DNA of 62,017 bases, filler included. It is 3 parts of 3 records of this genome, joined end to end, with 100 filler letters (N's around TTAATTAATTAA, not from the genome) between each part and the next. Parts side by side here need not be neighbours in the genome. Positions count along the whole stretch, not along the records: positions 24,009 to 55,674 come from SRR31156797_1249; 2 more parts are not named here. The stretch is one strand, 5' to 3'. The translations under genes were made by a program, and so were the position numbers. Within the stretch, counting starts at the first letter, position 1. Each line of letters begins with the position of its first letter. This document shows, in pieces, positions 46,318 to 61,783 of this stretch. A model generated the notes under the pieces. It worked only from the letters and a program-made list of their open reading frames with translations. It made no database searches and was not told the DNA's origin.

Positions 46318-46788
46318 CTACTGCAATATTTTAAATATATAACACTTCATGGCCTTATTACTCAGTTGACTGCGGACAGTCCTATGCTTTTCAACAAGAA
46401 CATAGCGCTGAGAGTACGGAAGCCACTTAATTAAGGTCATACGGTCAAAGCCAGTATACCCATGCTCCGCACACAGGCTCATGAAGTGATTCAGGTTAAT
46501 GGCCAGCTCGTTATCATCTTTACGATGATTCAATTCAGCCCAATGCTTTTCCACGATCTTCCAGAACTTTTTCAAAACAGGTTCTTCCGGCAGATCCTTC
46601 AGGAAGTCTAATTGCTCCGGAATGGCAGCATCAACACCACAAAGCATTTCCGCCAGCTTCAACATGTCATAGACCTGCTTTTCCTTCAGATCTGCCTTGG
46701 CATAGGCTGACCAAACCTCGGCCAGCCATTTCAATTTTTCCGGGCTTACATCCACGGTACTGGGAATACGAATATGTATATCTGACAT
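46318..46788 (-). CDS. Protein paralogous to the primase C-terminal domain
   Basis: Shares FW, LNH, AINLNHF, LP.S.+Y..EK.R.VRS and KC..FK with the end of 46800-49445. Confidence 0.82.
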   Translation of the reverse strand: MSDIHIRIPSTVDVSPEKLKWLAEVWSAYAKADLKEKQVYDMLKLAEMLCGVDAAIPEQLDFLKDLPEEPVLKKFWKIVEKHWAELNHRKDDNELAINLNHFMSLCAEHGYTGFDRMTLIKWLPYSQRYVLVEKHRTVRSQLSNKAMKCYIFKILQ

Positions 46789-46799
46789 GTCCAAACCTC

Positions 46800-49445
46800 C
46801 TACTTATTGCGTTTGAAAACCCAGCACTTCACAACCTTATTCTCATAGATTGCGCTTCGTACTGATCTGTTTTTTTCAATGAACTCATACTTTTTGGACT
46901 GCGGCAGCAGTTTTTTCAGGGACTTCATATCCGGCAGTTCCTGCCCCCTTTCCCTGCAGCGCTGGGTGAAGTGGTTCAAGTTGATAGCAATCTGATCCGG
47001 ATTGGTACTGTGGTTCAATCTGTATTCCGGTCCGGCATTAGTTTCAGAATCCAAATATCTGAAGGTTTCCCAGAACTGTTCTATCATTGGATGATCTGCG
47101 GCAAGGCGATCCTCACGCAATACCGCGCGGTGACGCAGGTAGTTCTGCAGCTTCTGCACCTTGCCATTATCAAAGGATGGAAACAGAACCTGAAGCGCAT
47201 GGCCACAGGCGGCAACCTGTGCATGATTCTTGGCGATACGTTCGTTTTTCAATACTTTTGAAAACTCGCCCTCGATGCGCTTGAAGGCTTCGAAGTATTT
47301 TTTCAAGATCTTCTTTTCATTTTTCAGGGCTGCAGCCAGAAAGCCGCAAACTTCTTCAACTGACTGTCTTTCGAAGAAACGCGCTATTTCACGGGAGCCG
47401 GGGCCATGATGGGATTTATCTGCATGGCAATGAACTATGCGCTGCAGCAGGGCTTCAGAGCCGTCCACCTCGGCGTTCTGGGAAATAATAAGCGAAGCCT
47501 GAAACAATGATTCCTCGACTTCGTTATTACGTCTGGCCACACCCAGCGTACCAGTTCCACGGCCGTTGAAAAACGGCTTGCAATCGTCAAAGTTAAACTG
47601 CACCTGCTTGCCGTTGCTGATCCCTGAATCACGGTCTGATTCAATGATAACAACGGGCAGGTTTGAGATCTGGTTAAACGCCCTGCGCCGTCCGGCCGTG
47701 GTGGCCTTCATAACGTCAAAGCCCTCATAAAGACGGCCGACCAGTTTCCACAGGAATTCAAGCGTGGTTGATTTACCTGCGCCCGGATCCCCGGTGTATT
47801 CAAAGAAGGGAAAGGACATTTGTTCCTTGCGGATCTGCTGCACGAAGAGCGTACCCAGCCAGAAGGCCAGCAAGGCAACTCCCTGCCAGTGGAACGCCTC
47901 CAAGTACTGATCAAACCACTTAGGATCGAATTCACCATCACCGGAAATCTTGATTGACTTCAGACCGGGACGGATAAACTGTTTACCCAGATCAAAGAAC
48001 TTATCTTCATTGAGGGGAATTTCACGGCCCTTGTGATAGGCCACAGTAGGATAAATGTACGCTTCGGCCGCGCTATCATATCCAATGTAAGGCACGGACC
48101 GGACAACCGGAAGCTGATTGCGGAGCCAGCGCCCTGTCAAAATACGCATGTCGGCCGGGGAGCCGTTGAAGATCCCGCCGCCGGTTCTGTTCAGCAGAGC
48201 CTTGTGGAAGGCATCAGCGGAAGCAATGTGCGTTCCCTCAAGGCGGACAACTTCCGGTTCACCCTTCGGGGTATTGATTTTGAAAACGTACCATTGTTCG
48301 TCCAGAATTTCGTCAACTTCACGGTACATGCACTGAGGATCCCGGTTGCAGATTTCCATCACATCACAATTAGCAATGAAAGTAGGAAGTGCTACTTCAT
48401 TATCTATTGTAGTTTCTTCATTAGCTAAATCTTCCGTCAGCTGGGATATATCCACGCTTACGCTGTATGTTCTGGACCTGAAGCCGATAACGAAACGTTT
48501 GGAAGTTCTGCGGCAGTACTGGTGATAGGCATACTCTTCAACCGTTTCGGCCATAAGCAGCTTGCCACGGTACCGGCAATCGTCCATGAGCTTCTTATCA
48601 ATCTTCCCGGCCCTGTGCAGATCGTCCCAATCCTGATCTACCGGGGGAACATAGACTTCATATTTTTCACCCAGTACGCGCAGTTTACGCGCATGCTTCT
48701 GAACATACTTTATTCCGGCCTTGTCACCGTCCAGAGCCAAACACCAGATAATGCCCTTGCCCTTGTTCTTTTCTATGAATTCTTTGGGATAGTGGTTGCT
48801 ACTGAAAGCTGCAAAAGATTTCCGGTCATGATGGGCCAAGGCGATTGAATGAAAGATCCCTTCCACCCAGAAAGCACGGTCACCTTCTTTCAGCTCTTGG
48901 CCCGGGGGGGACCAAACATCCCCCCGGTATATGGAACCATCAGATTTACGTTTACCTGCGAAATTGGCTTTCTGACCATCGTCCTTAGTCATATCTATCA
49001 GCCGTTCCCAGTAGCGGGTTCGTTCTGCATCAATATAAAACCTGATAGTGCTGCAGGATTTACCCGTATCTGGAAAGCGGTAAGCCTGTTGCTCATACCA
49101 GCCACGGATCCGCGAGAGGTCAAAGCCGCGGTTAATAGCCAGATAAGCATCAGCGGTTTTGTTCGGTTCTTTATCCGTGGCCGGGAAACGCTTATCAAAA
49201 TTGCTGAAGATATCCGGGAATAATTCCCGTGTAGATTCCTCGTAACCGCAATTGTTCAGCCGGTTGCATTTCACCTGCCACGGTTTATCCTTGGAAATGA
49301 AGCATTCCTTTTTTCCGCAACTCGGGCATTTTCCCTGGATAAACATGTTTCCGGTTTCCCGGAACTGAAACTGCGGATCCGTGCGGAGTGCTTCCACCAG
49401 CTCGTTGATATTAATCGCGGGGGAGTTTGGATTATTCTTGGTCAT
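46800..49445 (-). CDS. Primase-helicase (Zn finger-Toprim-P-loop helicase-CTD)
   Basis: CPSC...CNRLNNC, WVEGIFH, ALDGDKAG, DWDD, Walker A GDPGAGKST. Confidence 0.92.
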   Translation of the reverse strand: MTKNNPNSPAININELVEALRTDPQFQFRETGNMFIQGKCPSCGKKECFISKDKPWQVKCNRLNNCGYEESTRELFPDIFSNFDKRFPATDKEPNKTADAYLAINRGFDLSRIRGWYEQQAYRFPDTGKSCSTIRFYIDAERTRYWERLIDMTKDDGQKANFAGKRKSDGSIYRGDVWSPPGQELKEGDRAFWVEGIFHSIALAHHDRKSFAAFSSNHYPKEFIEKNKGKGIIWCLALDGDKAGIKYVQKHARKLRVLGEKYEVYVPPVDQDWDDLHRAGKIDKKLMDDCRYRGKLLMAETVEEYAYHQYCRRTSKRFVIGFRSRTYSVSVDISQLTEDLANEETTIDNEVALPTFIANCDVMEICNRDPQCMYREVDEILDEQWYVFKINTPKGEPEVVRLEGTHIASADAFHKALLNRTGGGIFNGSPADMRILTGRWLRNQLPVVRSVPYIGYDSAAEAYIYPTVAYHKGREIPLNEDKFFDLGKQFIRPGLKSIKISGDGEFDPKWFDQYLEAFHWQGVALLAFWLGTLFVQQIRKEQMSFPFFEYTGDPGAGKSTTLEFLWKLVGRLYEGFDVMKATTAGRRRAFNQISNLPVVIIESDRDSGISNGKQVQFNFDDCKPFFNGRGTGTLGVARRNNEVEESLFQASLIISQNAEVDGSEALLQRIVHCHADKSHHGPGSREIARFFERQSVEEVCGFLAAALKNEKKILKKYFEAFKRIEGEFSKVLKNERIAKNHAQVAACGHALQVLFPSFDNGKVQKLQNYLRHRAVLREDRLAADHPMIEQFWETFRYLDSETNAGPEYRLNHSTNPDQIAINLNHFTQRCRERGQELPDMKSLKKLLPQSKKYEFIEKNRSVRSAIYENKVVKCWVFKRNK

Positions 49446-49456
49446 TGAACACCCAC

Positions 49457-49984
49457 CTAAAAAGGAAGTTCTTCAAAAAAGTCATGAACGATTTTCTTAG
49501 CCAAATCTTCATTCATTTTTTCAAAGTAAGTTTCAGCTTCATCCCAACCGGAATCGCTATCCTTATAGACCTTGTTCATTGCTTCAATAGGTCCACCCCA
49601 GCCCAACAAAAAGGAGGTGCATACCTCCGGGCCGTTCGGTCCTTCGTCCAGCAGGACTAAGATCTGGCCATACTCTTCAGTTTCGTACAGCTTCGCAAAT
49701 GGGGTAATGCATGCGAGTGCTTCAGGAATGTAAAGGTCGAATTCCTCTGTTGCTGAAGAAACAGCCATAATTGCTTCCGCTTCATTGTATGCGCCAAATA
49801 CATTCTCTGCTGCTTTCCAACCAGCTTCTGTGTTTTTAAAGCTTCCACTGATCGAACAAATGCCCAAACCGGAAGGCTTAAACGAAACCTTAACTTCCGG
49901 GAGTCTGTTGTTTGCTCCAACGGTGATCAAAATCTGGCCATGTTTCTCAGTCTCATAGAGTTTTGCGAATTCAAGCTTATTCAT
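49457..49984 (-). CDS. Hypothetical protein made of two tandem homologous domains
   Basis: FAKLYETE.(H/Y)GQIL...PEV..SF...GW..AE..F occurs twice. Confidence 0.75.
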   Translation of the reverse strand: MNKLEFAKLYETEKHGQILITVGANNRLPEVKVSFKPSGLGICSISGSFKNTEAGWKAAENVFGAYNEAEAIMAVSSATEEFDLYIPEALACITPFAKLYETEEYGQILVLLDEGPNGPEVCTSFLLGWGGPIEAMNKVYKDSDSGWDEAETYFEKMNEDLAKKIVHDFFEELPF

Positions 49985-50237
49985 CTTCGCCCCCTTCGTC
50001 CTCGAGCGGGGTTACTTCCACACGAAACCGCTTTTCACCAAAGGAAACGATATGGTAAGCGGATTCGCCATATTCAACGCCGTTCAGTACTTTTTGGATA
50101 ATTGCTGACCAGACTTCGCCGTCAATGGGCTTATGCTCTATGGGTTCATACAGATTTTCGCCGTGGGTATAGAGATGAATTCCATTTGTTGAGCTGCAAA
50201 AAGCAACATTCACGTTATCAAGATTAATGCTATCCAT
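49977..50237 (-). CDS. Hypothetical protein
   Basis: GAGGTG RBS before MDSINL; overlaps neighbours. Confidence 0.6.
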   Translation of the reverse strand: MDSINLDNVNVAFCSSTNGIHLYTHGENLYEPIEHKPIDGEVWSAIIQKVLNGVEYGESAYHIVSFGEKRFRVEVTPLEDEGGEDE

Positions 50238-50478
50238 GCTGCACCTCACTAGGAAAATAAGTAGTTTCAGTGCATACCTTGATCCGAAATAGCTTTTTAT
50301 TCCCTTCGGAGTCGGTAACTTCAATGGGCGGCATATCGTCAAATTCATCTTGTGTTACTACCGTTCCGACTTCAGCTTCTTCTTGAGCAAAGTGGCTTGC
50401 AGCTATGTCCGCGCTGGCCCTGTGGTAAACACCCTCTTCAGCATCATCATTAAGAAATTTTACTGAGAACCGTTCCAT
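50230..50478 (-). CDS. Acidic hypothetical protein
   Basis: TAATG coupling to the upstream gene. Confidence 0.6.
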   Translation of the reverse strand: MERFSVKFLNDDAEEGVYHRASADIAASHFAQEEAEVGTVVTQDEFDDMPPIEVTDSEGNKKLFRIKVCTETTYFPSEVQHG

Positions 50479-50681
50479 TACTCTTCCCCTCCATTTTCAA
50501 ATTCAATTGCATCATCCAAAACAACCGCGCAGTTGCAAACCGACTGCCTAATAAAATCCAAAAGGCTTTTGGCTCCGGCGGAGACTTCTGTTTCCGGGAG
50601 TGTTTCAATTGTTTCGAGAGCACAACATGCGTTGAAAAGGTGGGTGATTGCCTGATCGGCAGTAAGGTCTTGTCTGGCCAT
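50478..50681 (-). CDS. 67-aa first gene downstream of the antisense RNA (icd/kil-like position)
   Basis: GGAGG RBS immediately follows the antisense target; start MARQDL. Confidence 0.7.
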   Translation of the reverse strand: MARQDLTADQAITHLFNACCALETIETLPETEVSAGAKSLLDFIRQSVCNCAVVLDDAIEFENGGEE

Positions 50682-50731
50682 GATAGCCTCCGTAGTAGTT
50701 TTAGGTGTCGGTTGCCCATCGACCAAAAAAA

Positions 50732-50802
50732 AGAGCAACCAGAATTCCTAACACCTACTACGATGCCTTCATGCCTCACGACATGAAGATTCTGGTTGCC
50801 CT
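50732..50802 (-). ncRNA. C4/CI-like cloverleaf antisense RNA
   Basis: 14-bp closing stem, hairpin with GUGA tetraloop, hairpin with GUAGUA loop and UAGG bulge complementary to 50909-50925 and 50691-50705. Confidence 0.75.
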
Positions 50803-50929
50803 GTCTATCAGGATGGAAGTGCAGAAAATAAACTACACCTATCCTGTCAGATTCATTAAGGGGTGCGCTAATGCGCAATAAAAAATCTCCGGTAAGGCTG
50901 GAGCACACCGTAGTAGAATTAGGAAGCTC

Positions 50930-50959
50930 AGAATGCCCCCTAAAACTAAAATTTGTCAA
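50930..50959 (-). promoter_or_regulatory. Putative sigma70 promoter of the antisense RNA/primase operon
   Basis: TTGACA-N18-CATTCT, with an operator palindrome just upstream. Confidence 0.5.
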
Positions 50960-50964
50960 GAGGG

Positions 50965-50981
50965 TAGGATAGACTATCCTA
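50965..50981. promoter_or_regulatory. 17-bp operator-like palindrome
   Basis: TAGGATAGACTATCCTA. Confidence 0.7.
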
Positions 50982-51037
50982 CACTGTGAATATTCGTTAT
51001 AAGAATCACCCAATAATTCTATAAGGAGATTCTTATT

Positions 51038-51715
51038 ATGACTGAAGATTATATTGTTGAAATCAAGGGCAGCGGGAAGAATCCGTATAAGGTTAATTTG
51101 AAAACTTATGCCTGCACTTGTCCTGATTGGCGGAACTGCCGAGCACAGCAGTCCATGGACTCTCCCAGAAGACTTTGCAAGCACCTTATCAAAGCTATTT
51201 GTGAAAACGGACTTGAAGGGGAATTCCCTACCGCTGACTTGCAGAGCCTGTATAAAAAGAAAAAAGGCTACCCACTTCCGAAGGATATTAACTTCCTTGC
51301 TGAAACTCACTTCCAGCAGGAAGTCGATACCGAATCCGTCAAGCGTATTCAATTCCTCATGGGTGACCATAATACGCTTAAAAATTGTAAGGAGTTCTTC
51401 AAAATCACAGAAGACGGCCCTGTATTGAGCCATGTTTCCAGTAGGCGTGATCTGCGCTGTGGGTGTGAACGTCTGTGCTGGTTGGGGCTCGCTGATAGCT
51501 GTGCTGATAAGTCTGCGGCAGAACTCCTTGACGGCTTGGCTCTGAAGGATCTGCGCAATATCGGCGGCGTTCTGGGTGAAACTTTCAAAAGCAAACCTTC
51601 CGGAATTAAAATCCTCTCCGAACACCCGGAACTTGATTCCGCTTTTACTGAAGCTGGATTTAACAAAGAAGATTTTTTTATCCTGAAACCGCTTAATCTG
51701 GATATGTTGCGGTAG
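51038..51715 (+). CDS. SWIM zinc-finger protein (accessory, opposite to its operon context)
   Basis: YKVNL...CTCPDW...LCKHL SWIM signature; AAGGAG RBS. Confidence 0.8.
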   Translation: MTEDYIVEIKGSGKNPYKVNLKTYACTCPDWRNCRAQQSMDSPRRLCKHLIKAICENGLEGEFPTADLQSLYKKKKGYPLPKDINFLAETHFQQEVDTESVKRIQFLMGDHNTLKNCKEFFKITEDGPVLSHVSSRRDLRCGCERLCWLGLADSCADKSAAELLDGLALKDLRNIGGVLGETFKSKPSGIKILSEHPELDSAFTEAGFNKEDFFILKPLNLDMLR

Positions 51716-51984
51716 CTCCGGAGCCTCATTTCTTTTCAATACGAATCTTCTCATTTTTCACCCTTCATAAAAAAACGCCCTTTCCAGCCACTGGTCAGGG
51801 CGTTTTCTATTTTATTTTGTATCGCTCTTGTATTTTCATTTATTCTGCGGCCCTCCCTCGGATATTCCGCGCCGTGCGGATTGTTAGGGGAGGTGGAGCA
51901 CGGGAGGACCACAGAATTAAGCCGGTTAACCCTATTCCGGCAGGCTTGATATTAGGAGAAGGTTTATTTTGAGATGCTTTGTTC

Positions 51985-53518: not shown

Positions 53519-53584
53519 TAGGATTTTTAATCCTAGCTAGTCAAGGACAAATAACACCCTTTACGCCTAGGATGGAAAATCCTA
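53519..53584. promoter_or_regulatory. Two 17-bp operator-like sites in the divergent switch region
   Basis: TAGGATTTTTAATCCTA (53519-53535) and TAGGATGGAAAATCCTA (53568-53584). Confidence 0.75.
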
Positions 53585-53905: not shown

Positions 53906-54061
53906 TTATTCCTCGCTATCAAGAGCGGCAATAATCTTATAAAATTTTTTCGCTAACATCCTCAATATACACGCCAGCCCGGAAGGAGCTGCATTGCAGC
54001 AAGTCTCTAGGGCTTCCGCCAGTTCATAAAGTTCTTCTATTAAGTCCTTAGTCTTGTCCAT
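53906..54061 (-). CDS. 51-aa protein (below the ORF-track cutoff)
   Basis: MDKTKDLIEELYELAEALETCCNAAPSGLACILRMLAKKFYKIIAALDSEE, GAGGTG RBS. Confidence 0.6.
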   Translation of the reverse strand: MDKTKDLIEELYELAEALETCCNAAPSGLACILRMLAKKFYKIIAALDSEE

Positions 54062-54119
54062 TTTTTACACCTCTGAATAACAGCGCTTGTTAGATTTCAT
54101 GTATAAGAATCTTGATAAT

Positions 54120-54169
54120 TAGGATATTATAGCCTAGTTTTCCCATTCAAGTTAGGAGATAAAAGCCTA
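54120..54169. promoter_or_regulatory. Two further 17-bp operator-like sites upstream of xis-int
   Basis: TAGGATATTATAGCCTA (54120-54136) and TAGGAGATAAAAGCCTA (54153-54169). Confidence 0.65.
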
Positions 54170-54239
54170 ATAAGATAATATATTACTCGGCTTTTATTCA
54201 TGATTTGTACCATTTATTAAGTTTTCTAAGGGGAGACTA

Positions 54240-54476
54240 ATGGAGACAACTTTCGATATACGAGGACCATTTTATAACCAGAAAAAGGCAGCAGAATACT
54301 GCGGCTATTCGCCCTCTACCTTTTGCAAAAAAATAAAAGGCTTCAAGCTGCCCATGGCTGGCCCGGACCTTAAACGCTACCCGCAATCGGTACTAGATGC
54401 ATGGATGGCCAACCCGGAAGTTTTCCGGCCGCAAAAACGCAGAACAAAACACAAACCTATGAAGGTGACCGTATGA
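54240..54476 (+). CDS. Excisionase-like winged-helix protein
   Basis: KKAAEYCGYSPSTF...RYPQSVLDAWM; ATGA overlap with the integrase. Confidence 0.75.
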   Translation: METTFDIRGPFYNQKKAAEYCGYSPSTFCKKIKGFKLPMAGPDLKRYPQSVLDAWMANPEVFRPQKRRTKHKPMKVTV

Positions 54477-55495
54477 GTGTGCGCCAAAGAAAAGATGGGT
54501 ACTGGATTGTAGATTTCAGGGACGAAGGAAAAACTAAAACTCGCTCATTCGGAAAAGGGAAGGAAGGAAAAAGAAAAGCCACAGAGTTTGATCTGAAGGT
54601 CAAGCTTCTAAAAAATCAGGGCAAGCCGATCCCAGTTGCACGGCCGGGAGGAATGTATCTTGATGAACTGTGCCAGCTATGGATCAACTACAAAAAAACA
54701 CAGGGTAGAAAAACGGGCTGGCTGAAAGACTGGATCAGCCTTTTTAACAATCGGTTTGCTCCGGAGCTGACCGACAAGCCTTGCGACATGCTCACGCAAT
54801 CCGACATTACCAATGTCATAGCAAAATACTATAGCGACTCCGCGCAATCCACACGCAACCGCTACACTGGATATCTGAGTGCTATTTTTGAATACGGATA
54901 CGAGAATGATCATATTAAAAGAAATCCCTTGAAGAGCTTGAAAAAAGGGAAAGAAAATTCACGTCAATCAATGCTGACTTTGAAAGATCTACGTAAAATC
55001 CAGAACCATTCACCAGATCATTTAGCGTGGGTTCTTGACGTAGCATGGAACATTCCGGTGCGTCCGGGTAAGGCGGATCTGTTTCCGCTCCGCTTCGATA
55101 ACAATGTCGATTTTTATATGAATACGGTCAAAGCCTACCACACCAAAGTTAATAAATGGTCAAAGATTGAGTGCTCAAAAAAGTTTATGAAAAGACTCTA
55201 TATCGCCAGCCAGACAAACGAAAGCGGGTACCTGATCGAATACAAAGGGGAACCCGTTCAAAATGTTAGCACTGCCCTAAAAAGAGCAGCAGGCCCCAAA
55301 GGCGCAAACCTGCCTTACTCTGTATGCATGACAGATATCAGACATCTCTGGATTACAACCATGATCAACAAGGGAGTGGAACTTTCAACCATTGCCTATC
55401 TGGCCGGAACCAGTGTCCGGATGCTCATAAAAAACTATTACGAACCCCATTCTGCAGAAAGAGCGAAGGCGGCAAAAATGTTACCAGAAATTTAA
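54473..55495 (+). CDS. int: Tyrosine recombinase (integrase)
   Basis: N-terminal arm-binding-like domain, STRNRY, PVRPG, TK, DIRH, C-terminal YY; adjacent to att. Confidence 0.85.
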   Translation: MSVRQRKDGYWIVDFRDEGKTKTRSFGKGKEGKRKATEFDLKVKLLKNQGKPIPVARPGGMYLDELCQLWINYKKTQGRKTGWLKDWISLFNNRFAPELTDKPCDMLTQSDITNVIAKYYSDSAQSTRNRYTGYLSAIFEYGYENDHIKRNPLKSLKKGKENSRQSMLTLKDLRKIQNHSPDHLAWVLDVAWNIPVRPGKADLFPLRFDNNVDFYMNTVKAYHTKVNKWSKIECSKKFMKRLYIASQTNESGYLIEYKGEPVQNVSTALKRAAGPKGANLPYSVCMTDIRHLWITTMINKGVELSTIAYLAGTSVRMLIKNYYEPHSAERAKAAKMLPEI

Positions 55496-55535
55496 CACGT
55501 TTTTGTTAAGCAATGCTGTGCAATCGCCAGAACGC

Positions 55536-55566
55536 AAAAAGCCCGGTCAAACTGACCGGGCTTTTT
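55536..55566. terminator. Terminator after the integrase
   Basis: AAAAAGCCCGGTCA-AAC-TGACCGGGCTTTTT. Confidence 0.85.
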
Positions 55567-55613
55567 CTTTTACGGCATAGCTCAAAACGTACGTAAAAAC
55601 CGCCGTAAAGCAT

Positions 55614-55648
55614 AAAAAAAGGGTTTACGTAAAACCACGTAAGCCCTT
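55614..55648 (-). terminator. Terminator downstream of the tRNA 3' end
   Basis: Minus strand AAGGGCTTACGT-GGTTTT-ACGTAAACCCTTTTTTT. Confidence 0.7.
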
Positions 55649-55674
55649 GAAATATCTGGTGGAGCTGGAGGGAA
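55645..55674. repeat. 30-nt direct repeat of the contig start (24009-24038)
   Basis: CCTTGAAATATCTGGTGGAGCTGGAGGGAA at both ends. Confidence 0.97.
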
Positions 55675-55774
55675 NNNNNNNNNNNNNNNNNNNNNNNNNN
55701 NNNNNNNNNNNNNNNNNNTTAATTAATTAANNNNNNNNNNNNNNNNNNNNNNNNNNNNNNNNNNNNNNNNNNNN
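55675..55774. other. Artificial contig linker
   Basis: N44-TTAATTAATTAA-N44. Confidence 0.97.
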
Positions 55775-55791
55775 GAGGAGGCGATGAGGGT

Positions 55792-57147
55792 ATGTTTAAT
55801 TTTAACCTGCTTCTGGAAGCATTTAGAAAGATGGCCGAATTAAATTACGTCTTTGTATTTATAATATTTTTTTCATTAGCAGTAATTTTATTTACAATAT
55901 TTAAAAAAGGACAATTTGCAGTACATAAAAAGCATGTTCTACTTTTGATTACAATATTACTTGCGACAATAATTGAGATTATATTAGCATCAAAGATTTT
56001 TAAAAATTCTTACATGGCACCTGTGGTTGCAATGTCTGGGATTTTATTCTTTGTAGCCTGGAAACTTTTCATTTCTTTCTTTAAACTAAACAAAAACCTA
56101 ACTCTTGTTTCCATATCATTAATACTAATCCTGCTTAGTTTACCAACTTTTATTGAGGCCAAAAGCATCTCAAAAATAACTCAAAATAGAATTAGTGAGA
56201 GATTAGATATGGCTAGCTTCATTGAAAATAAAATTTTGTCTGAACATTATCTTTTAATTGAACCGACCTGGAAAGCAGGCCCCTCTCCTTTGAACGGTAT
56301 TGTTTATGGACTGAGCTACATCGCTTCCAGATATGAATATGCAGAAAGTCTTATTAAGAAATATCCTAGAGTGTTAACCTACGAAAATGACAACAAACCT
56401 TTTAAACATCTTAGAACAAAGGATGCTAATATTGAAAATATCTTTACAGAAGATAATTCCGTTTATCTAATATCAACTCCAATACGAAAAACTGCTAAGG
56501 TGATGCAAGAGCTTAAAGATCAAGCAGCTTTTGTCAACATGAGAACTCAGTTTGATACAGTTTTTTCAAATGCCAATGATCACATTATAAGAACAAAGTT
56601 TATTCAATTACCAGTTTTAGATTCATTTAAGACCATTACTTTCTTTAATAACATGGAGGATGAAAGAAAAAATTGGAAACAAAATGCAATTACCAACGAT
56701 AATGCTTTCTCTGGCAAATTATCCACAAGAATAAAAAAAGGAAATAAATATAGTTCAGTATGTGAAATTGATTCAGTACATGGCTTTGCAGATGAAATTC
56801 ATACGCTAGAAGTTAGCTGCCAATATTTCCAAAAAAAGACAAATAATTCAAGAATGGTAATTGAATTATTCAATCAAAAGAATGAACGGTTGTGGTATCC
56901 TGTTTTTTGCATGAATTATTTTGAAGATATAAACAAATGGAGTAAATTTTCCTATAAATTATACGTACCAAGAAGCTATAGAACGTCCAAAAAGATAAAT
57001 ATATACTTTTATAATTCGTCAAAAACTCCTGTATATATAGACGATGTTTGTATTACATTAACTTATAAAGAAAAAACAAATCTTTTAACTACTCATTTAA
57101 TTTCAACTAACAAACCTATTTCTACAATAAATATTGATAAAACTTAA
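55792..57147 (+). CDS. Membrane protein with C-terminal carbohydrate-binding-like beta domain (probably 5'-truncated)
   Basis: Several N-terminal TM helices; AFSGK...IYFYN...VYIDD jelly-roll-like end; lies at the contig edge. Confidence 0.6.
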   Translation: MFNFNLLLEAFRKMAELNYVFVFIIFFSLAVILFTIFKKGQFAVHKKHVLLLITILLATIIEIILASKIFKNSYMAPVVAMSGILFFVAWKLFISFFKLNKNLTLVSISLILILLSLPTFIEAKSISKITQNRISERLDMASFIENKILSEHYLLIEPTWKAGPSPLNGIVYGLSYIASRYEYAESLIKKYPRVLTYENDNKPFKHLRTKDANIENIFTEDNSVYLISTPIRKTAKVMQELKDQAAFVNMRTQFDTVFSNANDHIIRTKFIQLPVLDSFKTITFFNNMEDERKNWKQNAITNDNAFSGKLSTRIKKGNKYSSVCEIDSVHGFADEIHTLEVSCQYFQKKTNNSRMVIELFNQKNERLWYPVFCMNYFEDINKWSKFSYKLYVPRSYRTSKKINIYFYNSSKTPVYIDDVCITLTYKEKTNLLTTHLISTNKPISTINIDKT

Positions 57148-57151
57148 TAAG

Positions 57152-59419
57152 ATGAAAAAGAATGCTGTTTCAATTCTAAGCCTTATAGTTCTTGCAATAT
57201 TAGTTTTGTTCATTAACCTAAAACCAGTATTTCAACACCCCAATTCAATTCTGTATTCAAAAGGTGGCGATGCCCAAAAAAGTTATTTCAATTTCGCTTA
57301 CTACCTGAAATTTGATAAAGGAATTAAACACGATGGAATTAACTATCCTTACGGCGACCATTTACAATATATAAATTCACATCCGCTGTATGTGCAAGTA
57401 CATAAGTTTGTTGATAATAACATTTACCCCATTGCCGATCACGGAGTTGCCATCTTAAACCTGAGCATGCTGGCACTTTTGGTTTTGGCCTTGCCCTTTA
57501 TTTTCCTAATCCTGAGGCATTATGCACTCCCTAGATGGTATGCTGGCATTATATCACTAATTCTTTTGTTTTTAAGTCCGCAGTTCGACCGTATACACGG
57601 GCACTTCGAAATGGTTTATGCCGTTTTCTTACCTATGTACTGGTTCTTCCTGATAAAATGGCGCGAAGGGAAAAAACGTGGACTATGGACTACACTACTG
57701 ATATTGGTAGCTTTAGTTGGTGGTTTTACAAGTGCTTATTTTGTGGCGTTTTTTACCATTATGCTTTTAGGTGTTTTATTGGTGGATATCTGGAATCATA
57801 AAAAAAGCCTATCGGAATATTGGAGAACAGGAATCTATTTATTTATCGTTGCAATTATTCCTCTTTTTGCAGTAAAGGGACTTGTTTCTGCTACCGATTG
57901 GGTTTCCGATCGACCAAATAATCCATATGGCTTTTACGTTTATCATGCCAATATTTTTAGCATCTTTTTGCCTTTTGGTTCGCAATTAAAAGGTGTTATT
58001 GGAAACCACATCAACATGGATTTTCAATGGGAAGGCCGTGCTTACGTTGGACTTCCGGCAACTTTACTCGCAACTTCTATGTTTATTGGCGGATTTCATA
58101 ATTTGCTAAGTAAGAATGAGGGAAGCTGGAAAATATTTAAACCAACTCGAAAAATCGAAGTGTTCTTGTATGCTTCAATTCTAGTTCTTTTATTTTCCAT
58201 GTGCATCCCATTTAAATACGGTTTTGACTGGCTATTAACGTTATTACCACCTGTCAAACAATTTCGGGCACTTGGACGCTTTACCTGGATATTCTATTAT
58301 GTATTCACCATTTATTGCGCATGGTTCTTTTATCGATTGTACCGCTTACTTAGACAAAAGCATCTTCATGTAGCGGCTACTATTTTGCTGGTTTTTGTAA
58401 TTGGGTATTGGTCGATAGATGCTGGTGTTAATATTAAACGAAGCACACGAGGATTGTTAAATAATAATGACAAATTTGAAGCTGATGACAGTGAATATCT
58501 TGCTCGTTTTCAGGAGGCTGAAGTTAGTCCCAACGAATTTCAGGCCATTTTCTTTTTACCTTTTGCCAGCACTTGTGGTGATAAGTTGTTATTCGAACAC
58601 AACTTAAATGGTTTTTCTGATGCAATGAAATGTTCGTACCACACAGGGCTTCCACTCATTCAAAGCTTCTCTCCACGTCTTTCGTATTCACAGGCTCTTA
58701 GTAGTATTCAAATGTTAGGTAGTCCTGCTATTCGGAAAACCAGGCTCGACGATATGAATAAAAAACCAATACTATTGGTGTGTACCAAAGAAAAGCTAAA
58801 CGAGCGTGAAATATGGTTGCAAAGCAAAGCCGAAGTCTTTTGGGAAGATAAATACATCACATTATCCCGCTTACCACTTTCCGTTTTCCACGATAGTTAC
58901 AAACAGTGGCATACCAATACGGGTAAAAAAGTTGTCAACCTAAATGGTAGCGGAAAAATTAAATCTGATGCTGCGCTATGCTCAATTATTTTTAATGGAT
59001 TTGAGGATGGAAAAGCAAAAACTATTTTTAGCGGACTTGGTTCTTTTTACGAAAGAAAAGGCCAACATGTGCTATTGGATAAAAAAATCGATAACGAATT
59101 TAACGCTGGGAAATATGAGCTTTCATTTTGGCTTTTTGTAGACAGCCGCAAATTTGATATGCCTAAAGCAGAGCTTAAAGTTTTTGATGAAAACAGCAAT
59201 CAGATTTTCTATAAACGTATGAACACACGCCAGGTACACGATGTTTACAATGGTTGGATAAGAGTAGCAGATTTTGTTGATATCGAGCCGGGGCAAACTT
59301 TACAGCTTCTTATCAAAGATGAATATGTTTCAATAGATAATCTTTTGGTTAAGCCAGCAAGTGCCAATGTCTTTATAAAGACTTCAACACTGGAGTTGTT
59401 CAATAATTACCCACTATAA
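57152..59419 (+). CDS. Polytopic membrane protein, GT-C/YfhO-like
   Basis: GGD, NYPYGD, EGRAYVG, QFRALGRF motifs; many TM helices. Confidence 0.6.
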   Translation: MKKNAVSILSLIVLAILVLFINLKPVFQHPNSILYSKGGDAQKSYFNFAYYLKFDKGIKHDGINYPYGDHLQYINSHPLYVQVHKFVDNNIYPIADHGVAILNLSMLALLVLALPFIFLILRHYALPRWYAGIISLILLFLSPQFDRIHGHFEMVYAVFLPMYWFFLIKWREGKKRGLWTTLLILVALVGGFTSAYFVAFFTIMLLGVLLVDIWNHKKSLSEYWRTGIYLFIVAIIPLFAVKGLVSATDWVSDRPNNPYGFYVYHANIFSIFLPFGSQLKGVIGNHINMDFQWEGRAYVGLPATLLATSMFIGGFHNLLSKNEGSWKIFKPTRKIEVFLYASILVLLFSMCIPFKYGFDWLLTLLPPVKQFRALGRFTWIFYYVFTIYCAWFFYRLYRLLRQKHLHVAATILLVFVIGYWSIDAGVNIKRSTRGLLNNNDKFEADDSEYLARFQEAEVSPNEFQAIFFLPFASTCGDKLLFEHNLNGFSDAMKCSYHTGLPLIQSFSPRLSYSQALSSIQMLGSPAIRKTRLDDMNKKPILLVCTKEKLNEREIWLQSKAEVFWEDKYITLSRLPLSVFHDSYKQWHTNTGKKVVNLNGSGKIKSDAALCSIIFNGFEDGKAKTIFSGLGSFYERKGQHVLLDKKIDNEFNAGKYELSFWLFVDSRKFDMPKAELKVFDENSNQIFYKRMNTRQVHDVYNGWIRVADFVDIEPGQTLQLLIKDEYVSIDNLLVKPASANVFIKTSTLELFNNYPL

Positions 59420-59505
59420 ATAAATCTTGTAGTGCCAAAATTCACCAAAAATCATTTGAAATCTAAAAATTAAATTTCACCTTTAAATTTGCAAAAGGTA
59501 ATTCT

Positions 59506-61722
59506 ATGGCAAAATCGTTGGTAAACACTAATGCTAAATTTGGCACTTTGCCGGTTTTTCTAACGGCACTTTCAACTATTCTTGGAGCTATTCTATTCTT
59601 AAGGTTTGGTTGGGCCGTAGGTCAGGTTGGTTTTCTGGGCGTTATCGGAATCATTGTTTTGGGGCATGTGGTAACCATACCAACCGCTTTTGCAGTAGCC
59701 GAAATTGCGACCAACCAACGGGTGCAAGGTGGCGGTGCCTATTACATCATCAGCCGTTCGTTTGGACTGAATATTGGTGGCGCCATTGGTATTGCACTCT
59801 ACCTGTCGCAAGCCATTAGTGTGGCATTTTATGTGATAGCTTTTGGCGAAGCATTTGAACCGCTAATCGACTGGATTGATAAAACCTATCGTTTTCAGAT
59901 TCCCGACCGACGTTGGATTACTATCCCAACCATGTCTTTACTGTCGATACTCATACTAACCAAAGGTGCAAATGTTGGCATGAAAGCTTTGTACGTTGTT
60001 GTTGCCATACTATTGACATCGATTGTGATGTTTTTTTTAGGCGACTCACCCATTAAACCAGAGCAGGTTGATTTTCACAACACCATAACCGACCACCTCG
60101 ATTTCTTTTTTGTGTTTACCATTATCTTCCCTGCATTTACTGGTTTGGCGGCAGGACTAGGGCTTTCTGGAGATTTAAAAGATCCCAAGAAATCTATTCC
60201 GAAAGGGACACTATGGGCAACCGTTGTGGGTATGTTGGTTTATATTGCCATTGCTTATAAATTTACAATTTCAGCTTCTCCCGAAGATTTAGTGGCCGAT
60301 CAGCTTATTATGCGAAAAATTGCCATATGGGGCCCAATTATCCCCATTGGTCTTGCCGCTGCTTCGCTAAGTTCAGCGTTGGGATCAATTATGGTTGCCC
60401 CACGAACGCTACAGGCCATTGGCTTTGATGATATTTTTCCTCAAAGCAATCTAAACCGCTGGTTTGCAAAAGGTCGTAAAAACGACAACGAACCCATTAA
60501 CGGTTCGCTGATTACTATAATTATTGCATTTGTATTTGTAATCGTGGGTGATGTAAATTTTGTAGCTCAAATTATCTCCATGTTCTTTATGGTAACTTAC
60601 GGAGCGATTTGTTTAATCTCACTCCTCGAACATTTTGCTGCCGATCCTGCTTACCGGCCAACTTTCCGTTCAAGCTGGCACACCTCGCTCATCGGGGCTC
60701 TTTTTTCCTTCTGGCTGATGTTTAAAATGAACGCTTCGTATGCAGCTGTTTCTTTGGTTATTATGGCAATGATTTATTATGCCATTATGCTGAATAACGA
60801 GGAAAACCAAGGACTAAACAAACTATTCAGAGGAGTAATATTCCAACTTAGCCGCCAAATGCAAATTATGTTACAACGTGCCGATAGCGAAAAAGATAAA
60901 AGTTGGCGCCCGTTTGGAGTATGTATTTCACACGATACTTTTAAAAGGCGGTCAGCTTTCGATATCATGCGCTGGATCTCGTACAAATATGGTTTTGGAA
61001 CCTATATTCATTTTATTAAAGGTTTGTTAAATGAGGAAACTACCGAAGAATCAAAGAATGTTCTTGAGCGACTTATTCAACTTTCGGCCGGCAGTAAGAG
61101 CCGGGTTTACCTCGACACAATTATTTCCCCCTCCTATACTTCAGCTATTGCCCAGGTAGTACAACTCTCGGGCATATCAGGCAAAGGGAACAACCTTATC
61201 TTATTTGAATTCTCCAGAACCGATCCGGGTAACTTAAAAGAGATAACGGCTAATTATAAATTGGTTGAATCTGCAGGTTTTGATATCTGTATTTTAAACA
61301 CTTCATACAAAAGTTTCGGCTACAAAAACGAGATTCATATCTGGATCAGTCCGGAAGACTATATGAATGCCAACCTGATGATCTTATTAGGTTATATTAT
61401 TTTAGGGCATCCGGACTGGAAAAAGGCAAAGATTAAGATATTTGCGTTGTACCCCGGCGAATCAATTGAAGAAAAACGCAAACAGCTAATGGAACTGATA
61501 AAAGCAGGTCGACTCCCGATTAGCCCGTCTAATATTTCGATGGTACCTTTCGAAACCGGAGACCGTAAAAAAGCGATATTAAAATACTCTGCCGACGCTG
61601 ATTTAACCATTGTTGGTTTCTCAACGGAAGCACTAAAAGATATTGATGAATTTAGCGAAGGTTATAACGATCTGGGTAACATACTGTTTGTAAGTTCGAA
61701 CCGGGCAAAAGCAATAAACTAG
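59506..61722 (+). CDS. APC-superfamily permease, cation-chloride cotransporter (SLC12-like)
   Basis: ILGAILFLR, GGAYYIISRSFG..IGGAIG, FPAFTG..AG..LSGDLKDPKKSIPKGT, APRTLQA, P.YRPTF; cytoplasmic C-domain. Confidence 0.88.
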   Translation: MAKSLVNTNAKFGTLPVFLTALSTILGAILFLRFGWAVGQVGFLGVIGIIVLGHVVTIPTAFAVAEIATNQRVQGGGAYYIISRSFGLNIGGAIGIALYLSQAISVAFYVIAFGEAFEPLIDWIDKTYRFQIPDRRWITIPTMSLLSILILTKGANVGMKALYVVVAILLTSIVMFFLGDSPIKPEQVDFHNTITDHLDFFFVFTIIFPAFTGLAAGLGLSGDLKDPKKSIPKGTLWATVVGMLVYIAIAYKFTISASPEDLVADQLIMRKIAIWGPIIPIGLAAASLSSALGSIMVAPRTLQAIGFDDIFPQSNLNRWFAKGRKNDNEPINGSLITIIIAFVFVIVGDVNFVAQIISMFFMVTYGAICLISLLEHFAADPAYRPTFRSSWHTSLIGALFSFWLMFKMNASYAAVSLVIMAMIYYAIMLNNEENQGLNKLFRGVIFQLSRQMQIMLQRADSEKDKSWRPFGVCISHDTFKRRSAFDIMRWISYKYGFGTYIHFIKGLLNEETTEESKNVLERLIQLSAGSKSRVYLDTIISPSYTSAIAQVVQLSGISGKGNNLILFEFSRTDPGNLKEITANYKLVESAGFDICILNTSYKSFGYKNEIHIWISPEDYMNANLMILLGYIILGHPDWKKAKIKIFALYPGESIEEKRKQLMELIKAGRLPISPSNISMVPFETGDRKKAILKYSADADLTIVGFSTEALKDIDEFSEGYNDLGNILFVSSNRAKAIN

Positions 61723-61783
61723 ATCAGGCTTGCGTTTTGGTGTTACCTTTTTTAGCTAATTTTGAAGCAATAAATTCTGAAAA

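What the first reader, a model, noticed from the sequence alone, without database searches (positions are those of the whole stretch)
50678..50981. C4/CI-like antisense RNA switch heading the replication operon
Seen on the minus strand, in order: operator; TTGACA-N18-CATTCT; target 1 UUCCUAA-UU-CUACUACG (50925-50909), followed by a stem GGUGUGCU/AGCGCACC enclosing a CUCC..GGAG-A-U6 terminator-like hairpin. Next is a 71-nt cloverleaf (50802-50732) with closing stem AGGGCAACCAGAAU/AUUCUGGUUGCUCU, hairpin CUUCAUGUC-GUGA-GGCAUGAAG, hairpin GCAUC-GUAGUA-GGUGU and bulge UAGG. Then comes target 2 CCUAA-AA-CUACUACG (50705-50691), running straight into the SD of GGAGGCUAUCAUG. The RNA's CGUAGUAG and UUAGGAA are exact complements of both targets. 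Known: this is the a1b1 / c4 / a2b2 logic of P1 and the seqA / CI / seqC logic of P4. Inference: an RNA immunity system with its own specificity sequence in a probable Desulfovibrionaceae phage, additionally under repressor control.
Basis: partly seen in the sequence, partly recalled or inferred. Interest (0 to 1): 0.85.

Follow-up and report, generated by a model that had tools for sequence, protein, structure and literature searches.

The report
c4-type antisense RNA switch, Desulfovibrionaceae prophage
A P2-like prophage of a sulfate-reducing bacterium carries a small structured RNA, flanked by two matching target sites, that most likely blocks translation of the first gene of its DNA-replication operon, built like the c4 RNA of phage P1 but too diverged for current RNA databases to recognise.

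Summary
On the minus strand lie an operator palindrome, a conserved promoter, target 1 (a1b1), a 71-nt three-way-junction RNA followed by a U-run, and target 2 (a2b2) fused to the Shine-Dalgarno sequence of a 67-aa ORF. That ORF heads an operon ending in an 881-aa primase.

I found nine copies in eight places (Maridesulfovibrio and Desulfovibrio genomes, one metagenome contig). Wherever the RNA loop (b') or joint (a') changes, both targets change with it. There are 8 b-specificities and 3 a-specificities. Pairing is 96% and 93%, and 0 of 500 shuffles reach either.

The RNA backbone is more conserved than second codon positions of the ORF. The b boxes diverge as fast as third positions.

One distant copy sits in front of a P22-type antirepressor gene, the classical c4 target.

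Rfam C4, c4-a1b1 and isrK detect P1 and P4 but not this RNA, although its topology equals the C4 consensus.

The operator motif recurs in the prophage's main switch region.

The stem proposed to enclose the first hairpin is not supported.

Verdict: a real, diverged, unannotated member of the known c4/CI kind. Trans action, processing and termination are inferred.

The parts
50963..50981 (-). Operator-like palindrome (TAGGAT-N5-ATCCTA core, 50965-50981), directly upstream of and abutting the -35 hexamer
   Evidence: The motif occurs 4 times in the window against 0.08 expected. The half-sites are kept in 5 of 9 copies.
50930..50959 (-). Promoter-like TTGACA-N18-CATTCT
   Evidence: Both hexamers are invariant in 8 of 8 aligned copies. 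L027 has TTGACG-N17-CATTCG. Activity was not tested.
50909..50925 (-). Target 1: a1 (50919-50925) and b1 (50909-50916), near the predicted 5' end of the transcript
   Evidence: Pairing with a'b' is 95.8%, 9 of 15 pairs show double changes, and 0 of 500 shuffles reach this. The duplex extends to 21 bp into hairpin 2.
50880..50903 (-). Weak terminator-like hairpin CUCC/GGAG followed by U6
   Evidence: The hairpin and U-run are kept in 9 of 9 copies, with CUCC/GGGG, CUUCC/GGAAG and CCCUCC/GGAGGG variants. It is weak in the window.
50864..50877 (-). Small hairpin UGCGC-AUUA-GCGCA
   Evidence: 100% paired, with one double change.
50804..50851 (-). Conserved leader hairpin ending two bases before the RNA
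   Evidence: 96.4% paired, 3 pairs with double changes, and 0 of 500 shuffles reach the covariation score.
50732..50802 (-). c4-like RNA: closing stem 50789-50802 / 50732-50745, hairpin 1 50767-50788, hairpin 2 50751-50766 with b' at 50755-50762, a' at 50745-50751
   Evidence: Fold z = -6.75. 98.3% paired, 11 of 37 pairs with double changes.
50725..50731 (-). U-run directly after the closing stem (likely an intrinsic-terminator tail)
   Evidence: A U-rich run is present in 9 of 9 copies. It is absent after c4 of P1 and CI of P4.
50687..50705 (-). Target 2: a2 (50701-50705), b2 (50691-50698), and Shine-Dalgarno GGAGG (50687-50691) sharing one G with b2
   Evidence: Pairing with a'b' is 92.9%, 7 of 13 pairs show double changes, and 0 of 500 shuffles reach this.
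50478..50681 (-). ORF67, first gene under the switch; no known family
   Evidence: Differences by codon position are 0.343 / 0.188 / 0.51. Six homologues were found. No hit in Pfam, PHROGs, NCBIfam or PADLOC.
46800..50478 (-). Downstream operon: ORF82, ORF123, ORF175 (phrog_9037) and an 881-aa primase with Toprim and P-loop regions
   Evidence: Synteny with the primase holds in 7 of 7 places.
51038..51715 (+). Divergent 225-aa gene with a SWIM-type CxC...CxH motif; shares the operator region
   Evidence: Codon-position changes 75 / 58 / 126 favour this strand.
53519..53584 (.). Two further TAGGAT-N5-ATCCTA sites between the divergent ORF88 (-) and ORF92 (+), the presumed main lysis-lysogeny switch

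Best explanation
This is a c4/CI-type antisense-RNA switch at the head of the replication operon of a P2-like Desulfovibrionaceae prophage.

Shown:
- A conserved promoter-like site precedes a leader that begins with target 1 (a1b1).
- The leader continues through a weak hairpin with a U-run and two conserved hairpins.
- It then encodes a 71-nt three-way-junction RNA. The loop of its second hairpin (b') and its 3' joint (a') are complementary to target 1 and to target 2 (a2b2).
- Target 2 is fused to the Shine-Dalgarno sequence of ORF67.
- All three sites co-vary across nine copies.

Inferred:
- The RNA is released from the leader. Its 5' end would come from processing, as RNase P does for c4. 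Its 3' end would come from termination at the closing stem plus U-run.
- It accumulates in lysogens and pairs in trans with a2b2. That covers the ribosome-binding site of ORF67 and, through translational coupling and polarity, silences the downstream primase operon of the resident prophage and of any incoming phage with the same b/a code.
- Target 1 lies near the predicted 5' end, has the longer complementarity (21 bp against 16), and is followed by a hairpin with a U-tail. It most likely acts as a cis mask or as a short IsrK-like decoy that counteracts the antisense RNA.
- The TAGGAT-N5-ATCCTA operator abutting the -35 hexamer adds control by the protein that binds the same motif in the main switch region.
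For: Anatomy and fold.

Copies: nine in eight places.

Covariation on the 8-copy alignment A3:
- a1b1:a'b' is 95.8% paired, 9 of 15 pairs have double changes, 0 of 500 shuffles reach this, and slid controls pair at 32-53%.
- a'b':a2b2 is 92.9% paired, 7 of 13 pairs have double changes, 0 of 500 shuffles.
- The internal structure is 98.3% paired, 11 of 37 pairs have double changes.
- RNAalifold found the long-range a1b1:a'b' helix unprompted.

Ninth copy (L027): both boxes are replaced (a' CUGACA, b' CCUAGA) with matching a1/b1 and a2/b2, and b2 overlaps AGGAGG.

Specificity: for target 2 the cognate duplex is the best in 8 of 8 rows and 8 of 8 columns. The two tandem copies are mutually orthogonal, -6.6 and -12.4 against -16.1 and -18.1 kcal/mol.

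Selection: RNA backbone divergence is 0.153 per site, below ORF67 second codon positions (0.188). The b boxes diverge at 0.39-0.55 against 0.51 for third positions.

Topology equals the Rfam C4 consensus, and the box placement equals that of P1.

L027 heads a P22_AR_N antirepressor gene (E = 7e-37), the classical target class of c4.

Operon context. Operator.
Against: No expression data exist; no RNA run was listed.

Trans action, processing and termination are all inferred.

Rfam C4, c4-a1b1 and isrK do not match at E <= 10, even on the 98-nt RNA alone. My own model does not find P1 c4 or P4 CI. Common descent with c4 is therefore not shown.

b' and a' partly overlap stem bases. The loop of hairpin 2 has only 6 nt, against 12 in the C4 consensus.

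For target 1 the cognate duplex is the best in 8 of 8 rows but only 6 of 8 columns.

The first hairpin is weak.

ORF67 has no known function and no similarity to Icd.

The nine copies come from close relatives, so the shuffle controls overstate independence.
Confidence: 0.8

Rival explanations
1. A purely cis-acting leader switch. b'/a' pair alternately with a1b1 (ribosome-binding site free, ON) or with a2b2 (site covered, OFF) within one transcript. No diffusible RNA is made and there is no immunity function.
For: The minimum-free-energy fold of the whole leader and the RNAalifold consensus both pair a1b1 with a'b' in cis. Covariation alone cannot tell cis pairing from trans pairing.
Against: A cis switch gives no reason for the boxes to diversify. 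Yet the b boxes change as fast as third codon positions while the backbone is nearly frozen. Two tandem copies in one prophage carry orthogonal codes. The compact stem-closed RNA followed by a U-run looks like a separate product. Architecturally identical P1 and P4 RNAs act in trans, according to passages of PMC5320573.
Confidence: 0.08
2. An IsrK-type positive switch dominates. The short 5' RNA (a1b1 plus hairpin and U-run) is the trans-acting regulator. It opens a translationally inactive read-through mRNA in which the c4-like fold masks the ribosome-binding site in cis, so the module is chiefly an activator or attenuator rather than an immunity repressor.
For: Target 1 lies near the predicted 5' end, is followed by a conserved hairpin and U-run in 9 of 9 copies, and has the longest complementarity, 17-21 bp. 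Rfam isrK covers the equivalent seqA-plus-terminator part of P4 and, below its threshold, of P1. The IsrK mechanism is documented in PMC4825925 (abstract and passages). The closing stem plus U-run could act as an attenuator.
Against: The first hairpin is weak in the window and in two of the three relatives folded with it. Rfam isrK and c4-a1b1 do not match here. This reading is compatible with the best explanation, to which it adds a layer, and does not exclude it.
Confidence: 0.1
3. The region is protein-coding: the 434-aa open frame 50450-51754 (minus strand) runs through it.
For: The frame is open in the window. tblastn finds it over about 400 residues in L005 and L010.
Against: In the part that overlaps the 225-aa gene, changes by codon position are 75 / 58 / 126 in the plus-strand frame, which puts the most changes at position 1 of the minus frame. 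The frame is broken in 3 of 8 copies (L008a, L008b, L011) by U-run length changes. It matches no family. RNA covariation explains the conservation.
Confidence: 0.01

Closest known systems
immI region of phages P1 and P7: operator Oc4, promoters, a1, b1, c4 RNA (77 nt), a2, b2, icd, ant (Rfam C4 RF01695, c4-a1b1 RF03163)
   Same: The order of parts is the same (P1 annotation). The box sizes match: a of 7 nt and b of 8 nt. b' lies in the loop of the second hairpin and a' in the joint before the 3' arm of the closing stem. b2 touches the Shine-Dalgarno sequence of a small first ORF (73 aa in P1, 67 aa here). A repressor operator sits at the promoter. Specificity changes by a few bases with compensating target changes, as for P1 against P7 (passages of PMC5320573). 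One copy (L027) controls an antirepressor gene.
   Different: No Rfam model matches, and my model does not find P1. Hairpin 1 is longer (9 bp against 5), the loop of hairpin 2 is shorter (6 nt against 12), and the closing stem is 14 bp against 17. A U-run follows the closing stem, where P1 has a CCAC-type tail. a and b are separated by 2 nt in both targets, against 7 and 22 nt in P1. ORF67 is unrelated to Icd. In 8 of 9 copies the cargo is a primase operon, not ant. The host phylum and phage type (P2-like) differ.
Immunity region of satellite phage P4: PLE, seqA, CI RNA, seqC, then eta/kil ... alpha primase-helicase
   Same: The RNA sits in the leader of the replication operon. The target upstream of the RNA is followed by a hairpin with a U-run, and the second target overlaps the Shine-Dalgarno sequence of the first small ORF (sequence read; Rfam hits). 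The final gene has the same domain order: zinc ribbon, Toprim, P-loop (weak BLASTP, E = 0.009).
   Different: No detectable RNA sequence similarity. P4 has no U-run after CI. P4 immunity works through premature termination; this is recalled, and the primary papers could not be read. Whether that happens here is unknown. In the window a separate protein switch with the same operator also exists.
IsrK of the Gifsy-1 prophage (Rfam RF01394)
   Same: A short 5' RNA ends at a terminator. Read-through yields an mRNA whose first small ORF is translationally coupled to downstream genes (PMC4825925). The isrK model covers the seqA and a1b1 parts of P4 and P1.
   Different: The isrK model does not match here. 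The hairpin here is much weaker. An activating role is not tested.
C4-like Group 1 sRNAs of Acinetobacter baumannii (PMC5320573)
   Same: A conserved scaffold with variable a'/b' regions, and apparent processing from longer transcripts (passages).
   Different: Those RNAs are recognised by Rfam C4 and are chromosomal multi-copy sRNAs. They have no flanking a1b1/a2b2 targets of their own.

Membership tests
Rfam C4 antisense RNA (RF01695, clan CL00128) | Covariance-model score at or above the gathering threshold (45 bits) | tested here: not met
   No C4 match in the whole window at gathering score, in 451 nt at E <= 10, or in the 98-nt RNA alone at E <= 10. None in the two IMG/VR relatives. Controls: P1 scores 68.8 bits and P4 74.9 bits.
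Rfam C4 antisense RNA (RF01695) | Topology: long closing stem, two adjacent hairpins, single-stranded joint before the 3' arm | tested here: met
   The consensus structure line against the fold. Pairing is 98.3% over 37 pairs in 8 copies. L027 folds the same way.
P1/P7 c4 system | b' (loop of hairpin 2) and a' (joint) complementary to one site upstream and one site downstream of the RNA gene | tested here: met
P1/P7 c4 system | The downstream target overlaps the ribosome-binding site of the first ORF | tested here: met
   b2 shares a G with GGAGG in the window. b2 overlaps the Shine-Dalgarno sequence itself in L002, L011 and L027.
P1/P7 c4 system | The RNA is excised from a precursor by RNase P and acts in trans to confer immunity | not testable with these tools
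   No RNA run was listed. Needs Northern blots, an RNase P assay and reporter genetics.
Rfam c4-a1b1 (RF03163) and isrK (RF01394) | Covariance-model match of the upstream target region with its terminator | tested here: not met
   No match at E <= 10. Controls on P1 and P4 score 51 and 44.1 bits for c4-a1b1, and 35.1 and 60.8 bits for isrK.
Rfam c4-a1b1 / isrK layout | The upstream target is followed by a Rho-independent terminator | tested here: inconclusive
   A hairpin plus U-run is present in 9 of 9 copies, with some compensatory changes. The stem is only 4-6 bp, and its energy does not exceed that of shuffles.
P4-type RNA immunity | The RNA lies in the leader of the replication (primase) operon | tested here: met
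   A primase gene lies downstream in 7 of 7 ORF67-bearing places. The exception is L027, which has an antirepressor.
P4-type RNA immunity | RNA-dependent premature transcription termination | not testable with these tools
   Needs Term-seq or transcriptional fusions.

The most novel reading that the evidence does not exclude
The module is a two-RNA toggle of its own design. The c4-like RNA gene doubles as an intrinsic terminator in front of the replication operon. The 5'-terminal a1b1 RNA, with its longer 17-21-bp complementarity that invades hairpin 2, is a dedicated anti-antisense partner. The lineage would have reached the c4 topology independently of the enterobacterial C4 family, or have diverged beyond any detectable homology.
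Probability: 0.2. Interest if true: 0.6.

Novelty: new member of a known kind. Interest (0 to 1): 0.42.

Why it matters
It takes the c4/CI style of RNA-based phage immunity into P2-like prophages of Desulfovibrionaceae, where no Rfam model reports it. No paper in the searched library links "C4 antisense" with Desulfovibrio.

The nine natural copies form a ready-made specificity series: 8 b codes and 3 a codes on a nearly constant scaffold, including an orthogonal tandem pair. That is useful as a seed for a new RNA family and for annotating these prophages. It could also serve as a set of orthogonal translational repressors.

It does not change the concept. Earlier notes of this scan already list many c4/IsrK modules in other prophages, some tandem and some in P2-like phages.

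Tried and rejected
- **Whole-genome tools:** none could be used on the window's own genome, because none is held.
- **Phage collection:** blastn in 'distant' mode found no match.
- **Primase as bait:** it found L001, which lacks the module, so the RNA is not tied to the primase family.
- **L007:** a distant ORF67 paralogue with no RNA upstream.
- **RNA expression:** no RNA holder was listed.
GGUGUGCU/AGCGCACC is rejected.
- **Alternative hairpin:** the 3' arm of the closing stem could pair with the downstream GGGCAACCG. It is 97.2% paired, but the covariation does not exceed shuffles (86 of 500 reach it). Left open.
- **434-aa minus-strand ORF:** rejected as a shadow frame.
- **Family searches for ORF67, ORF82, ORF123, ORF88 and ORF92:** Pfam, PHROGs, NCBIfam and PADLOC gave nothing for any of them. 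ORF175 matches only phrog_9037, of unknown function.
- **Protein-atlas lead for ORF67:** 'Derepression protein' at 0.83, which is at chance level.
- **Wider RNA searches:**
  - R1 over 151 family genomes gave 3 strong hits (G001, G024, G039) and 3 weak hits of 24-27 bits. I did not examine the weak ones.
  - R2 over 151 genomes of the order hit only the centre genome.
  - Three pattern scans of viral contigs returned only the two known contigs.
- **PMC176756 (P4 target sites):** not held.
- **Earlier findings:** look-ups by place and by sequence returned nothing.
Full report
**1. Observation**

- Palindrome GTAGGATAG-T-CTATCCTAC, 50981-50963.
- TTGACA-N18-CATTCT, 50959-50930.
- Target 1, UUCCUAA-UU-CUACUACG, 50925-50909.
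- A small hairpin CUCC/GGAG followed by A and U6, 50903-50880.
- A 71-nt RNA, 50802-50732: a 14-bp closing stem, a 9-bp hairpin with a GUGA loop, a 5-bp hairpin with loop GUAGUA, and a 5-nt joint UAGGA.
- A run of U after the RNA.
- Target 2, CCUAA-AA-CUACUACG, 50705-50691. Its last G is the first base of GGAGG.
- ATG at 50681.

The RNA folds exactly as described: -37.4 kcal/mol, z = -6.75, and 0 of 200 shuffles fold as well. The two-box target motif occurs only at these two places in the 62-kb window.

Small corrections:
- a' matches 7 nt of target 1 but only 5 nt of target 2.
- The fold is a three-way junction, not a cloverleaf.

**2. Context**

The window holds a P2-like prophage.
- Terminase and portal genes run in one direction; scaffold and major head genes run divergently.
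- A tail sheath, tail fibre and integrase are present.
- There is a CII(CP76)-like gene, a C5 methylase, and an 881-aa primase (phrog_1139, E = 1e-234; Toprim domain).

The ATG at 50681 opens a 67-aa ORF. It is followed by ORFs of 82, 123 and 175 aa that abut or overlap one another, and then by the primase.

ORF67 is a real gene. Differences per site by codon position among seven copies are 0.343, 0.188 and 0.51. It has no family in four libraries.

A 434-aa open frame crosses the whole region on the minus strand, but it is a shadow.
- Where it overlaps the divergent 225-aa plus-strand gene, changes by codon position are 75 / 58 / 126 in the plus frame.
- The frame is broken in 3 of 8 copies.

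**3. Relatives**

ORF67 has six homologues in the protein collection. Two carry Maridesulfovibrio names.

Searches with the protein, with an alignment of it, with DNA patterns and with covariance models gave nine copies of the module in eight places:
- the window;
- L002, a Desulfovibrio sp. MAG (G001);
- L005, a metagenome contig;
- L010 (G224);
- L008, two tandem copies (G194, also held as an IMG/VR contig);
- L009 (G319);
- L011 (G024);
- L027 (G039).

The element is rare in what was searched.
- 5 of 401 family genomes by protein.
- 4 of 26 genus genomes by pattern.
- 3 strong hits among 151 family genomes by RNA model R1.
- Only the centre genome among 151 genomes of the order, by model R2.
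- Two IMG/VR contigs.

**4. Covariation**

The counts below use the 8-copy alignment A3. L027 was found later and has a shorter leader, so I treated it separately.

The scaffold is nearly constant, and the boxes change together.

| Copy | b' (RNA) | b1 | b2 | a boxes |
|---|---|---|---|---|
| window | CGUAGUAG | CUACUACG | CUACUACG | UUAGG type |
| L010 | UGUUGUAG | CUACAACG | CUACAACG | UUAGG type |
| L008a | CGUAAUAC | GUAUUGUG | GUAUUACG | UUAGG type |
| L008b | CGUGUGAG | CUCACACG | CUCACACG | UUAGG type |
| L009 | CGUUCUAG | CUAGAACG | CUAGAACG | a' UUGAG, targets CUCAA |
| L005 | CGUAGUAG | CUACUAUG | CUACUACG | a' UUGAG, targets CUCAA |
| L002 | CCAUUG-type | CAAUGG | CAAUGG | UUAGG type |
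| L011 | UUCAUCU | AGAUGAA | AGAUGG | UUAGG type |

Formal counts:
- a1b1:a'b' is 95.8% paired. 9 of 15 pairs have double changes. 0 of 500 shuffles reach this. Controls with the partner slid by 1-3 columns pair at 32-53%.
- a'b':a2b2 is 92.9% paired. 7 of 13 pairs have double changes. 0 of 500 shuffles reach this.
- The RNA's own helices and two small leader hairpins are 98.3% paired. 11 of 37 pairs have double changes.
- RNAalifold proposed the long-range a1b1:a'b' helix on its own.

L027 replaces both boxes outright. Its a' is CUGACA and its b' is CCUAGA. The matching targets are a1 GUGUCAG, b1 UCUAGG, a2 GUCA and b2 UCUAGG, and b2 overlaps AGGAGG. The duplexes are 17 bp with target 1 and 13 bp with target 2.

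Together this gives 8 distinct b codes and 3 a codes.

The copies are close relatives, so the shuffle statistics overstate independence. The number of different pair types at single positions, up to four, argues for repeated events.

**5. Signs of a specificity determinant**

- RNAduplex energies of each RNA against each target 2 put the cognate first in 8 of 8 rows and 8 of 8 columns.
- For target 1 the cognate is first in 8 of 8 rows and 6 of 8 columns.
- The two tandem copies do not cross-react: -6.6 and -12.4 against -16.1 and -18.1 kcal/mol.
- Divergence per site is 0.153 for the RNA backbone, below second codon positions of ORF67 (0.188).
- Divergence is 0.54, 0.55 and 0.39 for b', b1 and b2, against 0.51 for third codon positions.

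A frozen scaffold with fast, coordinated box turnover is what heteroimmune phages would produce. A purely cis-acting structure gives no reason for it. This is inference.

**6. Comparison with the known family**

Rfam's C4 model finds P4 CI (74.9 bits) and P1 c4 (68.8 bits). The c4-a1b1 and isrK models find the upstream target regions of both phages.

None of these models, nor any other informative family, matches here. That holds at gathering score over the window, at E <= 10 over 451 nt, and over the 98-nt RNA alone. It also holds for the two IMG/VR relatives. My model R1 does not find P1 or P4 at E <= 10.

Yet the topology in the C4 consensus line is the one found here.

| Feature | Rfam C4 consensus | This RNA |
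|---|---|---|
| Closing stem | 17 bp | 14 bp |
| Hairpin 1 | 5 bp, tetraloop | 9 bp, tetraloop |
| Hairpin 2 | 5 bp, 12-nt loop | 5 bp, 6-nt loop |
| Joint before the 3' arm | 7-8 nt | 5 nt |

P1's annotation and sequence show the following:
- a C1 operator and two promoters;
- a1 (7 nt) and b1 (8 nt);
- c4, with b' in the loop of hairpin 2 and a' in the joint;
- a2 and b2, with b2 touching the Shine-Dalgarno sequence;
- icd (73 aa), then ant.

In P4 the upstream target is followed by a hairpin with U6. The second target overlaps the Shine-Dalgarno sequence of the first small ORF of the operon that ends in the alpha primase. The primase here shows the same domain order with only weak similarity.

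The differences are:
- no detectable RNA sequence similarity;
- different helix and loop lengths;
- a U-run directly after the closing stem in 9 of 9 copies, absent in P1 and P4;
- a and b only 2 nt apart;
- ORF67 unrelated to Icd.

L027 is telling. The same RNA scaffold there controls a P22_AR_N antirepressor gene (E = 7e-37), next to a Bro-N gene. That is the cargo class of P1 c4.

**7. Mechanism**

Shown: the parts, their order, their pairing potential and their co-evolution.

Inferred:
- The RNA is released from the leader and accumulates in lysogens.
- It pairs with a2b2 to cover the ribosome-binding site of ORF67.
- Through coupling it silences the primase operon. ORF67's stop overlaps the next start in the window, and ORF67 abuts the primase in L005, L011 and L008a.
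- The same block acts on incoming phages that carry the same code.

What is known for c4 comes from passages of PMC5320573: RNase P processing, b' occluding the ribosome-binding site, and 4 nt sufficing for P1/P7 heteroimmunity. The primary papers were not read. The P4 termination mechanism is recalled, not read.

Target 1 has the longer complementarity, 21 bp in the window, reaching into the 5' arm of hairpin 2. That extension is kept in L008b and L027. Target 1 lies near the predicted transcript start and is followed by a conserved hairpin with a U-run.

By analogy with IsrK (PMC4825925, abstract and passages), it may act as a cis mask or as a short decoy RNA. The hairpin is weak in the window, and 41 of 200 shuffles fold as well. 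This layer is therefore tentative.

**8. Operator**

TAGGAT-N5-ATCCTA occurs four times in the window, against 0.08 expected.
- One site is at the RNA promoter.
- Two lie between the divergent ORF88 and ORF92, which I take to be the main switch.
- One lies upstream of the integrase region.

In relatives the pattern is consistent.
- L005 and L014 have the motif, with at most one mismatch, both at the RNA promoter and in their switch regions.
- L003 and L011 have it at neither place.

The binding protein is not identified.

**9. Rejected detail**

A long leader hairpin ending two bases before the RNA is supported.

**10. Verdict**

This is a real c4/CI-type antisense-RNA switch, and comparative evidence for it is strong. 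It belongs to a diverged lineage that current Rfam models miss, in P2-like Desulfovibrionaceae prophages.

The kind of system is known. Earlier notes of this scan (AI notes that I did not test) list many Rfam-detectable c4/IsrK modules, some tandem and some in P2-like prophages.

No paper in the searched library pairs 'C4 antisense' with Desulfovibrio. The supplements of PMC2864571, which may give the range of C4, were not seen.

Noticed in passing
window 50450-51754 (-): A 434-aa open frame crosses the RNA region antisense to the 225-aa gene. It is also open in L005 and L010. Codon-position statistics and frame breaks in 3 of 8 copies mark it as a shadow ORF that gene callers could mis-annotate.
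   Followed up: yes
window 51038-51715 (+): The divergent 225-aa gene has an N-terminal SWIM-type motif (C-x-C ... C-x-H), and its nearest language-model clusters are SWIM proteins. Pfam does not report it. Homologues (51-53% identity) lie beside the module in L005 and L010 only. Function unknown.
   Followed up: partly
window 53519-53535, 53568-53584, 54120-54136: Further copies of the TAGGAT-N5-ATCCTA palindrome. Two lie between the divergent ORF88 and ORF92 (neither has a family), and one lies upstream of the integrase region. This is probably the operator set of the prophage's main switch.
   Followed up: partly
L014 2900-4300 (also held as L008): Two complete modules in tandem in one prophage: RNA b, ORF67b, an 87-aa ORF, then operator, RNA a, ORF67a and the primase. 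Their b codes are orthogonal.
   Followed up: partly
L027 1390-2553: The most diverged copy of the RNA scaffold controls a 308-aa P22_AR_N antirepressor gene. A Bro-N gene and a ribbon-helix-helix gene lie upstream, and there is no ORF67.
   Followed up: partly
window 50705-50741 (-): The 3' arm of the closing stem can also pair with a downstream near-copy of the 5' arm (GGGCAACCG). It is 97.2% paired in 8 copies, but the covariation does not exceed shuffles. It may be an alternative conformer of the read-through mRNA.
   Followed up: partly
L010 1442-1641: ORF67 appears frameshifted or internally duplicated in this copy: two overlapping tblastn segments in different frames.
   Followed up: no
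window 46318-46794 (-): A 158-aa ORF just downstream of the primase matches only the C-terminal ~100 positions of the same primase family (phrog_1139), as if that domain were duplicated as a separate gene.
   Followed up: no
L001 2000-3460: A 75%-identical primase with related ORF88, ORF92 and integrase but no RNA module and no ORF67. The module therefore behaves as a cassette.
   Followed up: partly
window 54000-62017: G+C drops from about 0.48 to 0.33-0.39 beyond the integrase end of the prophage, which suggests a different island or flank.
   Followed up: no
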